From sequence record KX828711: a DNA stretch of 64,000 bases. One strand, given 5' to 3'. Shown here piece by piece: positions 35,336-36,357 of the stretch. The notes beneath the pieces were generated by a model that worked only from the letters and a program-made list of their open reading frames with translations, ran no database searches and was not told where the DNA came from. Position numbers and translations under genes: made by a program. Each line of letters starts with the position of its first letter. Position 1 is the stretch's first letter. The stretch comes from Shigella phage SH7.

Positions 35336-35411
35336 TGGTCGAGGCAGTAGGGATCGAACCTACGACCTAGGACTTAGAAGGTCCTTGCTCTTCCTTCTGA
35401 GCTATGCCCCG
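35336..35411 (-). tRNA. tRNA-Arg (anticodon UCU)
   Basis: Hand-folded cloverleaf: 7-bp acceptor, anticodon loop CUUCUAA, T-loop TTCGATC, encoded CCA. Confidence 0.8.
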
Positions 35412-35415
35412 TAAT

Positions 35416-35491
35416 TGGGGTGACCGATGGGAGTCGAACCCATGACTACGAGAATCACAATCTCGAGTTCTACCAACTGAACTACGGCCAC
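35416..35491 (-). tRNA. tRNA-His (anticodon GUG), tentative
   Basis: Cloverleaf with anticodon loop UUGUGAU and discriminator C73, but no encoded G-1. Confidence 0.55.
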
Positions 35492-35605
35492 ATTAATACC
35501 TACTCCAACAATCAAGATGTCTTCACACGAAATTAAGAGAAGAGTGATCAGTTCAACCCCGATAATCGCGTCAAGTAGATATTAATGTGACAGTTGTCAC
35601 AAATT

Positions 35606-35680
35606 TGGCGGACGTGATAGGATTCGAACCTATAACCAATCGCTTAACAGGCGATCGCTCTGCCATTGAGCTACACATCC
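35606..35680 (-). tRNA. tRNA-Asn (anticodon GUU)
   Basis: Cloverleaf, anticodon loop CUGUUAA, T-loop TTCGAAT, discriminator G, CCA encoded. Confidence 0.65.
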
Positions 35681-35684
35681 AAAT

Positions 35685-35771
35685 TGGTGGGGAGTGATGG
35701 AGTCGAACCACCCGAGTCGCAATGACAATGGATTTACAGTCCACACCGCTACCTCTACGGGATAACTCCCC
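35685..35771 (-). tRNA. tRNA-Tyr (anticodon GUA), long variable arm
   Basis: 87 nt; perfect 7-bp acceptor, anticodon loop CUGUAAA, extra arm, discriminator A, CCA. Confidence 0.6.
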
Positions 35772-35784
35772 TTAATTCTTAATT

Positions 35785-35859
35785 TGGTGGCCCTAGGTGG
35801 AATTGAACCACCATCTGGCGATTATGAGTCGCTTGCTTGAACCTTCCAGCTACAGGGCC
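35785..35859 (-). tRNA. tRNA with CAU anticodon (Ile2-type or Met)
   Basis: Cloverleaf, anticodon loop CUCAUAA; occupies the position of T4 tRNA-Ile. Confidence 0.7.
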
Positions 35860-35860
35860 T

Positions 35861-35936
35861 TGGTGCTGATTGACGGAATCGAACCGCCGACCTTCTCATT
35901 ACAAGTGAGTTGCTCTACCTACTGAGCTAAATCAGC
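35861..35936 (-). tRNA. tRNA-Thr (anticodon UGU)
   Basis: Matches my recollection of T4 tRNA-Thr (GCTGATTTAGCTCAGTAGG...); anticodon loop CUUGUAA. Confidence 0.85.
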
Positions 35937-35941
35937 AAAAC

Positions 35942-36031
35942 TGGCGGAGGCAATAGGATTTGAACCTATGAGTCGCCGGAGCGACTGCCGGTTTTCAAGA
36001 CCGGTGCATTAAACCACTCTGCCACGCCTCC
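35942..36031 (-). tRNA. tRNA-Ser (anticodon UGA), long variable arm
   Basis: 90 nt; anticodon loop CUUGAAA, discriminator G, CCA encoded. Confidence 0.8.
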
Positions 36032-36033
36032 AG

Positions 36034-36107
36034 TCTCCATACAAGGATTTGAACCTTGGACCTCCTGATCCCAAATCAGGCGCTCTACCAAACTGAGCTA
36101 CACGGAG
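36034..36107 (-). tRNA. tRNA-Pro (anticodon UGG), CCA not encoded
   Basis: Anticodon loop UUUGGGA; 3 end abuts tRNA-Ser with a 2-nt spacer. Confidence 0.8.
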
Positions 36108-36117
36108 TAAATTAAAT

Positions 36118-36191
36118 TGGAGCGGATAATGAGAATCGAACTCACATCATCAGATTGGAAGTCTGAGGTAATGCCATTATACGATATCCGC
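36118..36191 (-). tRNA. tRNA-Gly (anticodon UCC)
   Basis: Perfect 7-bp acceptor GCGGATA/TATCCGC; anticodon loop CUUCCAA. Confidence 0.85.
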
Positions 36192-36196
36192 AAATT

Positions 36197-36283
36197 TGGT
36201 GCGAGAAGTGGGACTCGAACCCACAAGGAAATCATTCCGCAGCATTTTAAGTGCTGTGCCTTTACCAATTTGACCATTCTCGC
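36197..36283 (-). tRNA. tRNA-Leu (anticodon UAA), long variable arm
   Basis: 87 nt; anticodon loop CUUAAAA; CCA encoded. Confidence 0.8.
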
Positions 36284-36284
36284 G

Positions 36285-36357
36285 CTGGGAATAAAGGACT
36301 CGAACCTTTGCATCCTGGAATCAAAATCCAGTGCCTTACCAACTTGGCTAATTCCCA
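36285..36357 (-). tRNA. tRNA-Gln (anticodon UUG), CCA not encoded
   Basis: Anticodon loop UUUUGAU; 1-nt spacer to tRNA-Leu. Confidence 0.8.

What the first reader, a model, noticed from the sequence alone, without database searches (positions are those of the whole stretch)
35336..36357. Eleven-gene tRNA cluster, with His, Asn and Tyr beyond the eight I recall for T4
Hand folding gives 11 consecutive minus-strand tRNAs: Gln(UUG), Leu(UAA), Gly(UCC), Pro(UGG), Ser(UGA), Thr(UGU), a CAU tRNA (Ile2/Met type), Tyr(GUA), Asn(GUU), then after a 114-nt gap His(GUG) and Arg(UCU). From memory T4 encodes eight (Gln, Leu, Gly, Pro, Ser, Thr, Ile, Arg) with two stable RNAs between Ile and Arg; here three extra tRNAs occupy that interval. 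The putative tRNA-His has discriminator C73 but no encoded G-1, so it would need post-transcriptional G-1 addition or is charged atypically. Extra phage tRNAs could serve codon supply or replace host tRNAs cut by anticodon nucleases.
Basis: partly seen in the sequence, partly recalled or inferred. Interest (0 to 1): 0.55.

Follow-up and report, generated by a model that had tools for sequence, protein, structure and literature searches.

The report
Known T-even phage tRNA cluster variant
The eleven tRNA genes are real, but this exact cluster is already annotated in hundreds of T4-like phage genomes; the one odd detail is a histidine tRNA that lacks the normally essential extra 5' G and travels with a conserved hairpin-shaped spacer RNA.

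Summary
The window is a Tequatrovirus, 99% identical to phage JLBYU22. The region is held by 266 GenBank phage records, and most listed ones annotate these tRNAs. Tyr and Asn were described for T2L, RB1 and RB3 in 2008, and T6 tRNA-Tyr was linked to Septu evasion in 2026. T4 has the homing endonuclease gene segB between Ile and Arg, with rnaD and rnaC after Arg. The window lacks segB and has rnaD/rnaC homologues about 370 bp downstream. Its CAU (Ile2-type) and Arg tRNAs are different genes from T4's.

The missing G-1 on tRNA-His is real (T at -1, C73, encoded CCA). All 17 genes of this tRNA-His lineage that I sampled share it (Straboviridae, Vequintavirinae, Bixzunavirus, T5). In contrast, 60 of 63 other viral tRNA-His genes encode G-1. 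The 114-nt gap is a structured spacer. Its 14-bp closing helix ends at -1, is supported by covariation, and resembles T5 stable RNAIII in architecture. Spacer plus His form a ~195-bp cassette. No Thg1 homologue occurs in these phages.

Verdict: the cluster is already known. The His cassette is a modest unexplained oddity.

The parts
36367..36390 (-). 10-bp hairpin in the 5' leader, 9 nt upstream of tRNA-Gln. It is also present in T4.
   Evidence: Sequence. It folds as a perfect 10-bp stem in both the window and T4. From memory, the T4 tRNA precursor leader is cut by RNase III; not tested here.
36284..36357 (-). tRNA-Gln(UUG). It matches T4 except for 8 changes, all in the anticodon arm (positions 27-43). 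No CCA is encoded.
   Evidence: (67.4 bits).
36197..36283 (-). tRNA-Leu(UAA), 100% identical to T4 and T6.
   Evidence: (59.3 bits).
36118..36191 (-). tRNA-Gly(UCC), 99% identical to T4.
   Evidence: (63.3 bits).
36033..36107 (-). tRNA-Pro(UGG), 99% identical to T4. No CCA is encoded.
   Evidence: (66.8 bits).
35942..36031 (-). tRNA-Ser(UGA), 96% identical to T4. Unlike T4's, it has an encoded CCA (a T2L-like CCAG).
   Evidence: (59.2 bits); PMC2330249.
35861..35936 (-). tRNA-Thr(UGU), 96% identical to T4.
   Evidence: (72.9 bits).
35785..35859 (-). CAU-anticodon tRNA, most likely the Ile2 (lysidine) type. It is a different gene from T4/T6 tRNA-Ile (62-65% identity), and homology to T4 breaks inside it.
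   Evidence: (56.5 bits). Its best full-length match in 5,412 E. coli genomes is annotated tRNA-Ile at 81.6%.
35685..35771 (-). tRNA-Tyr(GUA), class II with a long variable arm. It is absent from T4.
   Evidence: 30.2 bits against a cut-off of 29. It is 85/87 identical to T6 tRNA-Tyr, which is expressed and counteracts Septu when amplified (PMC13096335).
35606..35680 (-). tRNA-Asn(GUU), absent from T4. The homologous T2L gene holds the preferred SegB cleavage site.
   Evidence: 74.1 bits; PMC2330249. Positions 36-41 read UAAGCG, against the E. coli AriB site UAAUC|C (bioRxiv 10.1101/2025.02.04.636281).
35492..35605 (-). The 114-nt structured spacer that forms the leader of tRNA-His. It has a small hairpin at 35600-35587 and a 14-bp closing helix (5' arm 35586-35573, 3' arm 35505-35492) whose last pair involves U(-1).
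   Evidence: MFE -30.7 kcal/mol, z = -2.98. The same closing helix is present in at least 10 Straboviridae genera whose helix interiors (2-79 nt) are in several cases unrelated in sequence. 99.2% of cells pair, 5 pairs change on both sides, 0 of 500 shuffles reach the score, and slid registers give 56% or less. There is no Rfam match and no sigma-70-like promoter on the minus strand.
35416..35491 (-). tRNA-His(GUG) with T at -1, G1-C72, C73 and an encoded CCA. It is absent from T4, T6 and T2L-like phages.
   Evidence: (65.1 bits). The lineage's cloverleaf has 13 compensatory pairs and -1:73 is U.C in 15 of 15. Spacer plus His is a ~195-bp indel relative to the T2L-like phage Phaginator.
35336..35411 (-). 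tRNA-Arg(UCU). Same anticodon as T4 tRNA-Arg but a different gene (61% identity).
   Evidence: (66.1 bits).
34969..35319 (-). 116-aa ORF of unknown function (phrog_3355) between tRNA-Arg and rnaD. It belongs to the segment that differs from T4.
   Evidence: A phrog_3355 gene also borders the tRNA cluster of a Karamvirus.
34708..34970 (-). Homologues of the T4 stable RNAs rnaD (about 34970-34853) and rnaC (about 34846-34708), followed by an intrinsic terminator at 34657-34634.
   Evidence: blastn gives 92% identity to T4 rnaD+rnaC. Sequence, T4 annotation, terminator.

Best explanation
This is the ordinary tRNA gene cluster of a T2/T6-like Tequatrovirus (a T4 relative), in a variant that lacks the segB homing endonuclease. 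It is transcribed on the minus strand as part of a polycistronic precursor. The precursor runs from a leader hairpin upstream of tRNA-Gln through 11 tRNAs and a small ORF to the rnaD/rnaC stable RNAs and a terminator. It is presumably cut into mature tRNAs by host RNase P and 3' processing enzymes, as in T4 (inferred). The proximal genes Gln to Thr are 96-100% identical to T4's, apart from a swapped anticodon arm in Gln. The distal segment is a mosaic hot spot that homing endonucleases reshuffle. Where T4 has segB plus its own Arg, this phage has an Ile2-type CAU tRNA, Tyr, Asn, a [structured spacer + His] cassette and a different Arg(UCU). The extra tRNAs most likely top up the tRNA pool during infection. 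One reason is that the AT-rich phage uses many AAU and UAU codons. Another is that host tRNA-Tyr, tRNA-Asn and, weakly, tRNA-His are targets of defence nucleases (Septu, retron-Eco7, PARIS). The 114-nt gap is a hairpin-closed spacer RNA. RNase P would release it by cutting at G+1 of tRNA-His, which would give a tRNA-His without G-1. How well that tRNA is charged is unknown.
For: Shown: all 11 tRNAs are called by two independent methods. The window is 99% identical to annotated Tequatrovirus genomes and 266 records hold the region. Synteny with T4 holds on both sides, and the break points fall inside the CAU tRNA and at rnaD. The window has no segB. Relatives are mosaics: an endonuclease between His and Arg, an endonuclease in place of Pro, loss of the cassette, and loss of His alone. 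Tyr is 98% identical to the T6 tRNA-Tyr that is expressed and rescues infection from Septu (PMC13096335). T2L, RB1 and RB3 carry the CAU, Tyr, Asn and Arg genes, and the Asn gene is the preferred SegB site (PMC2330249). Codon use in 68 window ORFs is AAU 45.7, AAC 15.5, UAU 37.1 and UAC 9.9 per 1000, with 75-79% NAU. PARIS AriB cleaves tRNA-Asn, with minor cleavage products for tRNA-His, and T5 tRNA-Asn helps evasion (bioRxiv 10.1101/2025.02.04.636281). The tRNA-His cloverleaf and the spacer helix are both supported by covariation. T5 has the same layout, with an annotated stable RNA (RNAIII) abutting a T(-1) tRNA-His.
Against: Nothing contradicts the identification. The functional part is inferred. 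T4 lacks Tyr, Asn and His; I did not measure its codon usage, but from memory it is similarly AT-rich. The tRNA region is not essential (PMC2330249), so codon supply cannot be a strong requirement. His codons are not abundant (16.4 per 1000). The anticodon loop of the phage tRNA-His is identical to the host's, so it shows no obvious nuclease-escape change. Without G-1, in vitro histidylation drops to about 1% (PMC3245924), so the His gene may contribute little to translation. T6 tRNA-Tyr is itself cleaved by Septu and helps only when amplified (PMC13096335).
Confidence: 0.85

Rival explanations
1. Anti-defence is the main selective force. On this view Tyr, Asn and His are kept chiefly as spare or resistant copies of host tRNAs that immune nucleases destroy, not for codon supply.
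For: T6 tRNA-Tyr (98% identical) counters Septu, a T6 mutant lacking the tRNA-rich region is more sensitive, and T4 without Tyr cannot escape (PMC13096335). AriB cleaves tRNA-Asn(GUU) and gives minor products for His(GUG), and T5 tRNA-Asn is needed for full rescue (bioRxiv 10.1101/2025.02.04.636281). The window's Asn reads UAAGCG where E. coli has the AriB site UAAUC|C. All three extras are G34-U35 tRNAs, the class that colicin E5 cuts (from memory). The tRNA-Gln differs from T4's only in its anticodon arm.
Against: Septu also cleaves T6 tRNA-Tyr, and a single copy is not enough (PMC13096335). The anticodon loop of tRNA-His is identical to the host's. No defence system is known that targets mainly tRNA-His. 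None of this was tested for this phage.
Confidence: 0.4
2. The tRNA-His gene does not work as a normal elongator tRNA. Lacking G-1, it would be poorly charged, and it acts as a decoy, a regulator or a processing scaffold, or is simply a hitchhiking remnant.
For: T at -1 and U.C at -1:73 in 15 of 15 aligned lineage members, and also in Merlin and T5. G-1 loss gives about 1% histidylation in vitro (PMC3245924). There is no Thg1 homologue in these phages. His codons are scarce. His has been lost from teqskov, and Phaginator lacks the whole cassette, so the cassette is dispensable.
Against: Purifying selection on the full cloverleaf is strong, with 13 compensatory pairs. GUG, G1-C72, U2-A71, G3-C70 and C73 are invariant, and CCA is encoded in 14 of 15. 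These are the host tRNA-His acceptor features and fit continued recognition by HisRS. The T5 record notes that its tRNA-His body makes an effective suppressor once the anticodon is changed.
Confidence: 0.2
3. The mature phage tRNA-His does carry a -1 nucleotide, made by a non-canonical route. The leader helix could shift the 5' cut to -2/-1 and leave U-1, or an unknown enzyme could add G-1.
For: A stable helix ends 0-3 nt from +1 in 10 of the 13 foldable T(-1) leaders but in only 2 of 13 G(-1) phage-cluster leaders, both of those with weak folds. The T5 annotators included the T(-1) in the 78-nt tRNA-His feature. From memory, HisRS mainly reads the 5'-phosphate of the -1 residue.
Against: From memory, U at -1 is the preferred context for canonical RNase P cleavage at +1. 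U-1 cannot pair with C73. No Thg1 homologue is present, and from memory E. coli has none. Helices abutting the next tRNA are normal in packed phage clusters (0-1 nt spacers here), and the T4 dimeric precursors are standard RNase P substrates (from memory).
Confidence: 0.12
4. The extra tRNAs are largely neutral cargo. Homing-endonuclease-driven gene conversion shuffles them between T-even phages, with little selection on which tRNAs are present.
For: Close relatives differ widely in content (T4, T6, T2L-like Phaginator, teqskov, NWU-11B). SegB targets tRNA genes and drives exclusion of the T2L region (PMC2330249). segB is significantly co-located with tRNAs with no isotype preference (PMC13096335). 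The region is non-essential (PMC2330249).
Against: Each tRNA keeps an intact fold with high covariance scores. The His cassette is conserved with compensatory changes across many genera and at least three phage families. The Tyr phenotype is experimental (PMC13096335).
Confidence: 0.25

Closest known systems
[quoted passage not shown] 2008, PMC2330249)
   Same: A T4-like cluster without segB. It carries a CAU tRNA (called Met in that paper), Tyr, Asn and an alternative Arg downstream of the shared Gln-to-Thr genes, and a tRNA-Ser with CCAG. The T2L-like phage Phaginator aligns base for base with the window across Tyr-Asn and Arg.
   Different: The paper never mentions tRNA-His. The window has an extra ~195-bp [spacer + His] cassette between Asn and Arg.
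Phage T4 tRNA cluster (NC_000866: Gln Leu Gly Pro Ser Thr Ile segB Arg rnaD rnaC)
   Same: Same genomic position and flanks (trna.2-4, ipI and 57B upstream; rnaD/rnaC and e.8 downstream). Gln to Thr are 96-100% identical outside the Gln anticodon arm.
   Different: T4 has segB and lacks Tyr, Asn, His and the spacer. The T4 Ile(CAU) and Arg(UCU) genes are different sequences (61-65% identity). In the window an ORF (phrog_3355) separates Arg from rnaD.
Phage T6 tRNA-rich region and tRNA-Tyr (Chihara et al. 2026, PMC13096335)
   Same: tRNA-Tyr is 98% identical and sits in the same locus. In T6 it is expressed and relieves Septu immunity when amplified.
   Different: T6 has segB right after Tyr and lacks Pro, Ser, Asn and His. 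The window has no segB, so SegB-driven amplification in cis is not available to it.
Phage T5 RNAIII followed by tRNA-His (NC_005859 annotation)
   Same: A roughly 100-nt RNA closed by a 12-14-bp helix lies immediately upstream of a tRNA-His gene that has T at -1, C73 and CCA. RNAIII is annotated as a stable RNA.
   Different: RNAIII has no detectable sequence similarity to the window's spacer. The phage family differs (Demerecviridae). The T5 tRNA-His has a divergent D-arm.
G-1-less tRNA-His of an alpha-proteobacterial clade such as Caulobacter (PMC3064791, PMC3245924)
   Same: A bacterial-world tRNA-His gene without an encoded G-1.
   Different: Those organisms have a co-evolved HisRS (PMC3245924) and, from memory, A73. 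Here C73 is kept, and the one host gene checked, a Salmonella chromosomal tRNA-His, encodes G-1.

Membership tests
tRNA (Rfam RF00005) for the three extra genes | Covariance-model score at or above the gathering threshold of 29 bits, plus an independent cloverleaf call. | tested here: met
   Asn 74.1, His 65.1 and Tyr 30.2 bits, and ARAGORN calls all three. Tyr is borderline but 98% identical to the expressed T6 tRNA-Tyr.
T-even (Tequatrovirus) tRNA gene cluster | Located between the trna.2-4/ipI/57B genes and rnaD/rnaC/e.8, on the same strand, with near-identical Gln to Thr genes. | tested here: met
   blastn against T4 gives 96% identity over 36476-35840 and 92% over 34969-34625. The annotation of the 99%-identical JLBYU22 agrees.
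T4-type cluster specifically | segB between Ile and Arg, and T4-type Ile(CAU) and Arg(UCU) genes. | tested here: not met
   tblastn with T4 SegB finds nothing in the window (best E = 1.6). The CAU and Arg genes are 61-62% identical to T4's.
T2L/RB1/RB3-type cluster | No segB; a CAU tRNA, Tyr, Asn and an alternative Arg distal to Thr. | tested here: met
   Gene content. The alignment to the T2L-like Phaginator is continuous except for the His cassette. The description is in PMC2330249. The T2L sequence itself was not fetched.
Canonical bacterial tRNA-His | A genome-encoded G-1 able to pair with C73, giving an 8-bp acceptor stem. | tested here: not met
   Position -1 is T (35492), and U.C is found in 15 of 15 lineage members. 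A Salmonella chromosomal tRNA-His has G at -1, as do 60 of 63 distinct viral-contig tRNA-His genes.
Canonical bacterial tRNA-His | GUG anticodon, C73 discriminator and a G1-C72/U2-A71/G3-C70 acceptor end. | tested here: met
   These are invariant across 15 lineage members and the same as in the Salmonella gene.
Thg1-dependent tRNA-His maturation | A Thg1 or Thg1-like guanylyltransferase encoded by the phage or the host. | tested here: not met
   The query was yeast Thg1, validated as PF04446 at 3e-51. tblastn against 50,697 phage records found 131 carriers. No Tequatrovirus, other Straboviridae, Vequintavirinae, Bixzunavirus or T5 record appears among the 60 evenly spaced rows or in the organism tally; 71 of the 131 carriers were not listed individually. 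That E. coli lacks Thg1 is from memory. A very divergent enzyme cannot be excluded.
tRNA-Ile2 (lysidine-dependent CAU tRNA) rather than tRNA-Met | Closest similarity to the host ileX/ileY genes rather than to the Met tRNAs, and TilS determinants in the acceptor stem. | tested here: inconclusive
   The best full-length E. coli match is annotated tRNA-Ile at 81.6% in 5,412 genomes. C4-G69 and C5-G68 are present, but their role as TilS determinants is recalled from memory. Lysidine itself cannot be tested with these tools.
T5 RNAIII-like excised spacer (stable) RNA | A hairpin-closed RNA directly abutting the 5' end of a T(-1) tRNA-His. | tested here: met
   for the window and its relatives, and for T5.
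T5 RNAIII-like excised spacer (stable) RNA | Sequence homology to RNAIII, and accumulation as a stable RNA in infected cells. | tested here: not met
   No similarity by blastn-short. Accumulation cannot be tested with these tools.

The most novel reading that the evidence does not exclude
A mobile cassette, made of a hairpin-closed spacer RNA plus a tRNA-His that deliberately lacks the near-universal G-1 identity nucleotide, is shared by several families of large virulent phages (Straboviridae, Vequintavirinae and Demerecviridae; Bixzunavirus has the tRNA only). The one host tRNA-His gene checked (Salmonella) encodes G-1, and bacteria generally do. If the mature tRNA really lacks G-1 and still works, these phages use a tRNA-His with non-canonical identity or processing rules. 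It might be charged by HisRS through C73 alone, be exempt from some host control or nuclease that reads the G-1:C73 end, or have a role outside translation. The conserved leader helix would then be part of that mechanism.
Probability: 0.3. Interest if true: 0.65.

Novelty: already known. Interest (0 to 1): 0.33.

Why it matters
As a tRNA cluster it changes nothing. It is one more copy of an arrangement seen in hundreds of sequenced T-even phages, and the locus has been studied experimentally for SegB homing (2008) and for Septu evasion through tRNA-Tyr (2026). Its practical value is as annotation guidance. The CAU tRNA is Ile2-type rather than Met, the gap is a structured spacer, and rnaD/rnaC homologues lie downstream.

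The tRNA-His cassette could matter. G-1 is regarded as the major and nearly universal identity element for HisRS. A conserved, clearly selected phage tRNA-His without it, in hosts that require it and with no Thg1 available, is an inexpensive natural test of how strict that rule is in vivo. Phage tRNAs are now being linked to evasion of tRNA-targeting immunity, so an atypical 5' end could also bear on that question.

Tried and rejected
1. I looked for a known RNA family in the 114-nt spacer and in the rnaD/rnaC region. Rfam at E <= 1 returned only tRNA-derived hits.
2. I tested whether the spacer is an internal promoter. No sigma-70-like site lies on the minus strand inside it. By eye there is no MotA box or TATAAATA late-promoter motif. 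The TTGACG block is not conserved in Klebsiella phages. Rejected.
3. I tested whether the spacer is homologous to T5 RNAIII, RNAI or RNA1. blastn-short gives only 7-8-nt chance matches. Only the architecture is shared.
4. I tested whether lack of G-1 is a general property of phage tRNA-His genes. An unbiased IMG/VR pattern scan rejects this: 60 of 63 distinct genes have G at -1, including 14 of 17 in phage tRNA clusters.
5. I tested G-1 addition by a phage Thg1 and rejected it for this phage group.
6. JLBYU22 annotates a second tRNA-His at the Asn position. The sequence there is identical to the window's Asn gene, so this is an annotation slip.
7. Literature searches for a description of G-1-less phage tRNA-His found nothing relevant in the open-access library. 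Older subscription papers on T5 tRNA genes are not covered.
8. A second IMG/VR scan with a conserved spacer block added only two new loci.
9. I did not obtain the SegB recognition sequence. It appears only in a figure, so I could not check base by base that the window's Asn gene holds the preferred site.
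Full report
**Observation.** ARAGORN finds exactly 11 tRNA genes in the 64-kb window. All are on the minus strand between 35336 and 36357. Rfam's tRNA model at gathering threshold finds the same 11 and nothing else. Asn scores 74.1 bits and His 65.1. Tyr scores only 30.2 against a cut-off of 29. Spacers between genes are 0-13 nt, except for 114 nt between Asn and His (coordinates).

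**What genome this is.** The region 35100-36700 is 99.1% identical to Escherichia phage JLBYU22 (Tequatrovirus). 1,025 phage records match it, and 266 hold at least 80% of it. Most of the listed records annotate tRNA genes there, and those that do name the same isotypes. The cluster is therefore already in the databases many times over. JLBYU22 labels the Asn gene "tRNA-His(gtg)", but its sequence there is identical to the window's, so that label is an annotation slip.

**Comparison with T4.**
- The T4 reference order is Gln-Leu-Gly-Pro-Ser-Thr-Ile-[segB]-Arg-rnaD-rnaC.
That is wrong. A GIY-YIG homing endonuclease gene lies there, and the stable RNAs follow Arg.
- blastn shows 96% identity to T4 from upstream of Gln to the middle of the CAU tRNA (window 36476-35840). 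Similarity then stops, and resumes at 92% over rnaD+rnaC (window 34969-34625).
- Between these points the window has the rest of a different CAU tRNA, then Tyr, Asn, the 114-nt spacer, His, a different Arg(UCU) and a 116-aa ORF (phrog_3355). T4 has segB and its own Arg.
- The window's CAU and Arg genes are only 61-65% identical to those of T4 and T6.
- tblastn with T4 SegB finds nothing in the window.
- The CAU tRNA's best full-length match in E. coli genomes is annotated tRNA-Ile at 81.6%. I therefore read it as an Ile2 (lysidine) type, although ARAGORN labels it Met.

**What is published.**
- Brok-Volchanskaya et al. 2008 (PMC2330249) sequenced the tRNA regions of T2L, RB1 and RB3. They lack segB and carry tRNA-Met(CAU), Tyr, Asn and Arg. 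[quoted passage not shown] The paper calls the region non-essential and never mentions tRNA-His.
- Chihara et al. 2026 (PMC13096335) showed that Septu cleaves tRNA-Tyr. Overexpressed or SegB-amplified T6 tRNA-Tyr restores infection. A T6 mutant lacking the tRNA-rich region is more sensitive, and T4, which has no tRNA-Tyr, cannot escape.
- The window's Tyr is 85/87 identical to T6's.
- A 2025 preprint (10.1101/2025.02.04.636281) shows that PARIS AriB cleaves tRNA-Lys and tRNA-Thr(UGU), with tRNA-Asn(GUU) a secondary target and minor products from tRNA-His(GUG). T5 tRNA-Asn contributes to evasion.
- The window's Asn reads U36-AAGCG where the preprint gives U36AAUC|C41 for E. coli.

**Mosaicism.** Close relatives differ exactly in this distal segment.
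- NWU-11B has the same 11 tRNAs plus a 621-bp endonuclease gene between His and Arg.
- EPIMAM01 has an extra ORF upstream of Gln.
- Phaginator (T2L-like) has an endonuclease in place of Pro. Its Asn directly abuts Arg.
- teqskov keeps the spacer but has lost His.
- T6 has Tyr-segB-Arg and lacks Pro, Ser, Asn and His.

An alignment shows that the window differs from Phaginator by one ~195-bp block, which is exactly the spacer plus tRNA-His.

**Codon usage.** I used 68 non-overlapping ORFs (17,020 codons; window GC 35.3%). Asn codons total 61 per 1000 (75% AAU). Tyr codons total 47 per 1000 (79% UAU). His codons total only 16 per 1000 (76% CAU). From memory, E. coli uses roughly 39, 28 and 23 per 1000. 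Extra supply is therefore plausible for Asn and Tyr but weak for His.

**tRNA-His and G-1.**
- The gene reads ...AAT|GTGGCCG...CGGTCAC-C-CCA, so it has T at -1, G1-C72, C73 and an encoded CCA.
- A Salmonella chromosomal tRNA-His aligns in the same register, with G at -1.
- Every BLAST-related phage tRNA-His I fetched also has T at -1. These come from about ten Straboviridae genera (Tequatrovirus, Karamvirus, Jiaodavirus and an unclassified Klebsiella phage, Moonvirus, Winklervirus, Kanagawavirus, Kagamiyamavirus, Gualtarvirus, Cinqassovirus). They also include three Vequintavirinae phages, a Bixzunavirus mycobacteriophage and T5.
- To remove the BLAST bias I scanned IMG/VR with a pattern that fixes only the D-loop, the GUG anticodon and the T-loop. 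Of 63 distinct genes, 60 have G at -1. That includes 14 of the 17 that lie in phage tRNA clusters. The three exceptions are the window type, a relative, and one other contig.
- Lack of G-1 therefore marks one lineage of phage tRNA-His. It is not a general property of phage tRNA-His genes.
- The lineage is under clear selection as a tRNA. Across 15 sequences the 21 cloverleaf pairs are about 100% paired, 13 pairs show compensatory changes, and 0 of 500 shuffles reach the score. The -1:73 position is U.C in all 15.
- G1-C72, U2-A71, G3-C70, C73 and the GUG anticodon are invariant.
- According to a review, bacteria encode G-1, and RNase P leaves it in place because it pairs with C73. Without G-1, histidylation falls to about 1% in vitro (PMC3245924).

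**Thg1.**
- The query was a yeast Thg1 sequence recalled from memory. It was validated against Pfam as PF04446 at E = 3e-51.
- tblastn found homologues in 131 of 50,697 phage records. The carriers are jumbo phages, Bacillus phages, mycobacteriophages of about 110 kb, Caulobacter and Brevundimonas phages, and others.
- No Tequatrovirus, other Straboviridae, Vequintavirinae, Bixzunavirus or T5 record appears among the 60 evenly spaced rows listed or in the organism tally. The other 71 carrier records were not listed individually.
- The collection holds more than 190 Tequatrovirus-type records with this His gene.
- The Thg1 route is therefore not supported.

**The 114-nt gap.**
- On the sense strand it folds to -30.7 kcal/mol (z = -2.98). 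It forms a small hairpin and a long closing helix whose 3' arm ends at -1 of tRNA-His.
- The His gene plus about 100 nt of this spacer are 87% conserved in Klebsiella and Enterobacter T4-like phages.
- In Moonvirus, Winklervirus, Kagamiyamavirus, Jiaodavirus, Kanagawavirus and Gualtarvirus the interior is unrelated in sequence and ranges from 2 to 79 nt. The closing helix persists, running from nt 2 after the upstream tRNA to -1 of His.
- I anchored the 5' arm on its sequence motif and the 3' arm on His +1, which gave nine distinct arm pairs. They show 99.2% pairing, 5 of 14 pairs changed on both sides, a covariation score of 0.389 against 0.259 for shuffles (0 of 500), and 56% pairing or less in slid registers.
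- The G.U pairs occur on the sense strand, which points to an RNA-level structure.
- Caveats: there are only nine related sequences, and I built the arm alignment myself.
- Vequintavirinae (CR9, POP15) and Aeh1 have leader hairpins of different sequence that end 0-1 nt from +1 in the MFE folds.
- As a control, a stable helix ends 0-3 nt from +1 in 10 of the 13 foldable leaders of T(-1) genes. Two of the three exceptions are artefacts of truncating the leader to 120 nt; the full-length fold ends at -1. Among G(-1) phage-cluster tRNA-His genes this is so for only 2 of 13, and both of those folds are weak.
- In T5 the annotated 106-nt stable RNA "RNAIII" occupies the same position. It folds with a 12-bp closing helix that ends 2 nt before the T(-1) of tRNA-His.
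- The spacer matches no Rfam family, has no sigma-70-like promoter on its strand and shows no sequence similarity to RNAIII.

**Interpretation.**
- The simplest reading is that the spacer is a structural, tRNA-sized module in the polycistronic precursor. Its paired ends mimic the acceptor stem of an upstream tRNA.
- This is the usual situation in the cluster, where neighbouring tRNAs are 0-1 nt apart.
- RNase P cutting at His +1 would release the spacer, possibly as a stable RNA like T5 RNAIII or T4 rnaC/rnaD.
- From memory, U at -1 is the preferred context for canonical RNase P cleavage. The mature tRNA-His would then start at G+1.
- All these processing steps are inferred. None was tested.
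- Why a G-1-less tRNA-His is maintained in hosts that use G-1 remains unexplained.

**Verdict.** The finding is real but ordinary. It is a known Tequatrovirus tRNA cluster variant, of the T2L/T6 type plus a His cassette. The description of T4 needs correcting, and the claim of novelty fails. The residual interest lies in the conserved [structured spacer + G-1-less tRNA-His] cassette. I could not find it described in the searchable literature, although the T5 genome annotation implicitly records the same layout.

Noticed in passing
window 34708-34970 (minus strand); terminator at 34634-34657: Homologues of the T4 stable RNAs rnaD and rnaC (92% identity) lie about 370 bp downstream of tRNA-Arg. 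The phrog_3355 ORF separates them from it, and a strong intrinsic terminator follows. rnaC contains a tRNA-like T-arm (CCGGGTTCGAATCCCGG). Rfam has no family for either RNA.
   Followed up: partly
window 36284-36357 (tRNA-Gln): The tRNA-Gln differs from T4's at 8 positions, all within the anticodon arm (27, 28, 30, 32, 38, 40, 42, 43). The other 66 positions are identical. The whole anticodon stem-loop looks swapped (loop UUUUGAU here, CUUUGAC in T4). This recalls the proposal that phage tRNAs escape anticodon nucleases through changes in the anticodon loop.
   Followed up: partly
window 35606-35680 (tRNA-Asn): Positions 36-41 read UAAGCG, whereas the reported PARIS AriB cleavage context in E. 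coli tRNA-Asn is UAAUC|C. This could be a resistance substitution. Not tested.
   Followed up: no
L001 (JLBYU22, OK272484) 2007-2083: The GenBank record annotates the Asn(GUU) gene as a second tRNA-His(gtg). The sequence is identical to the window's Asn gene, so this is an annotation error.
   Followed up: yes
L005 (phage teqskov, NC_054934) about 1490-1700: teqskov keeps the structured spacer at 94% identity, but tRNA-His is deleted down to a few terminal bases. An Asn-like (GTT) tRNA upstream of the spacer is not annotated in the record.
   Followed up: partly
L144 (vB_EcoM_11B_SA_NWU) 518-1138; L146 (Phaginator) 712-1362: Free-standing endonuclease genes are inserted at different points of the same cluster in close relatives. 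One lies between His and Arg and another replaces tRNA-Pro. The tRNA cluster is a homing-endonuclease hot spot beyond segB.
   Followed up: partly
window 34969-35319; L003 (Karamvirus) 1-195: A phrog_3355 ORF of unknown function lies at the distal edge of the tRNA cluster both in this window and in an Enterobacter Karamvirus. Its association with tRNA clusters is conserved across genera.
   Followed up: no
phage collection: 131 phage records encode Thg1-family tRNA-His guanylyltransferase homologues. They are jumbo phages of Yersinia, Erwinia, Serratia, Xanthomonas and Burkholderia, Bacillus phages, mycobacteriophages of about 110 kb, and Caulobacter and Brevundimonas phages. I did not check whether their tRNA-His genes lack G-1.
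   Followed up: no
window 35942-36031 (tRNA-Ser) and 36033-36107, 36284-36357: tRNA-Ser has an encoded CCA here (T2L-like CCAG), whereas T4's does not. Pro and Gln lack an encoded CCA, as in T4, so they must rely on the host CCA-adding enzyme.
   Followed up: partly
window 36367-36390: A perfect 10-bp hairpin lies 9 nt upstream of tRNA-Gln and is also present in T4. The stem still folds despite differences in stem and loop. It is probably the leader processing site of the precursor. From memory this is an RNase III site in T4.
   Followed up: partly
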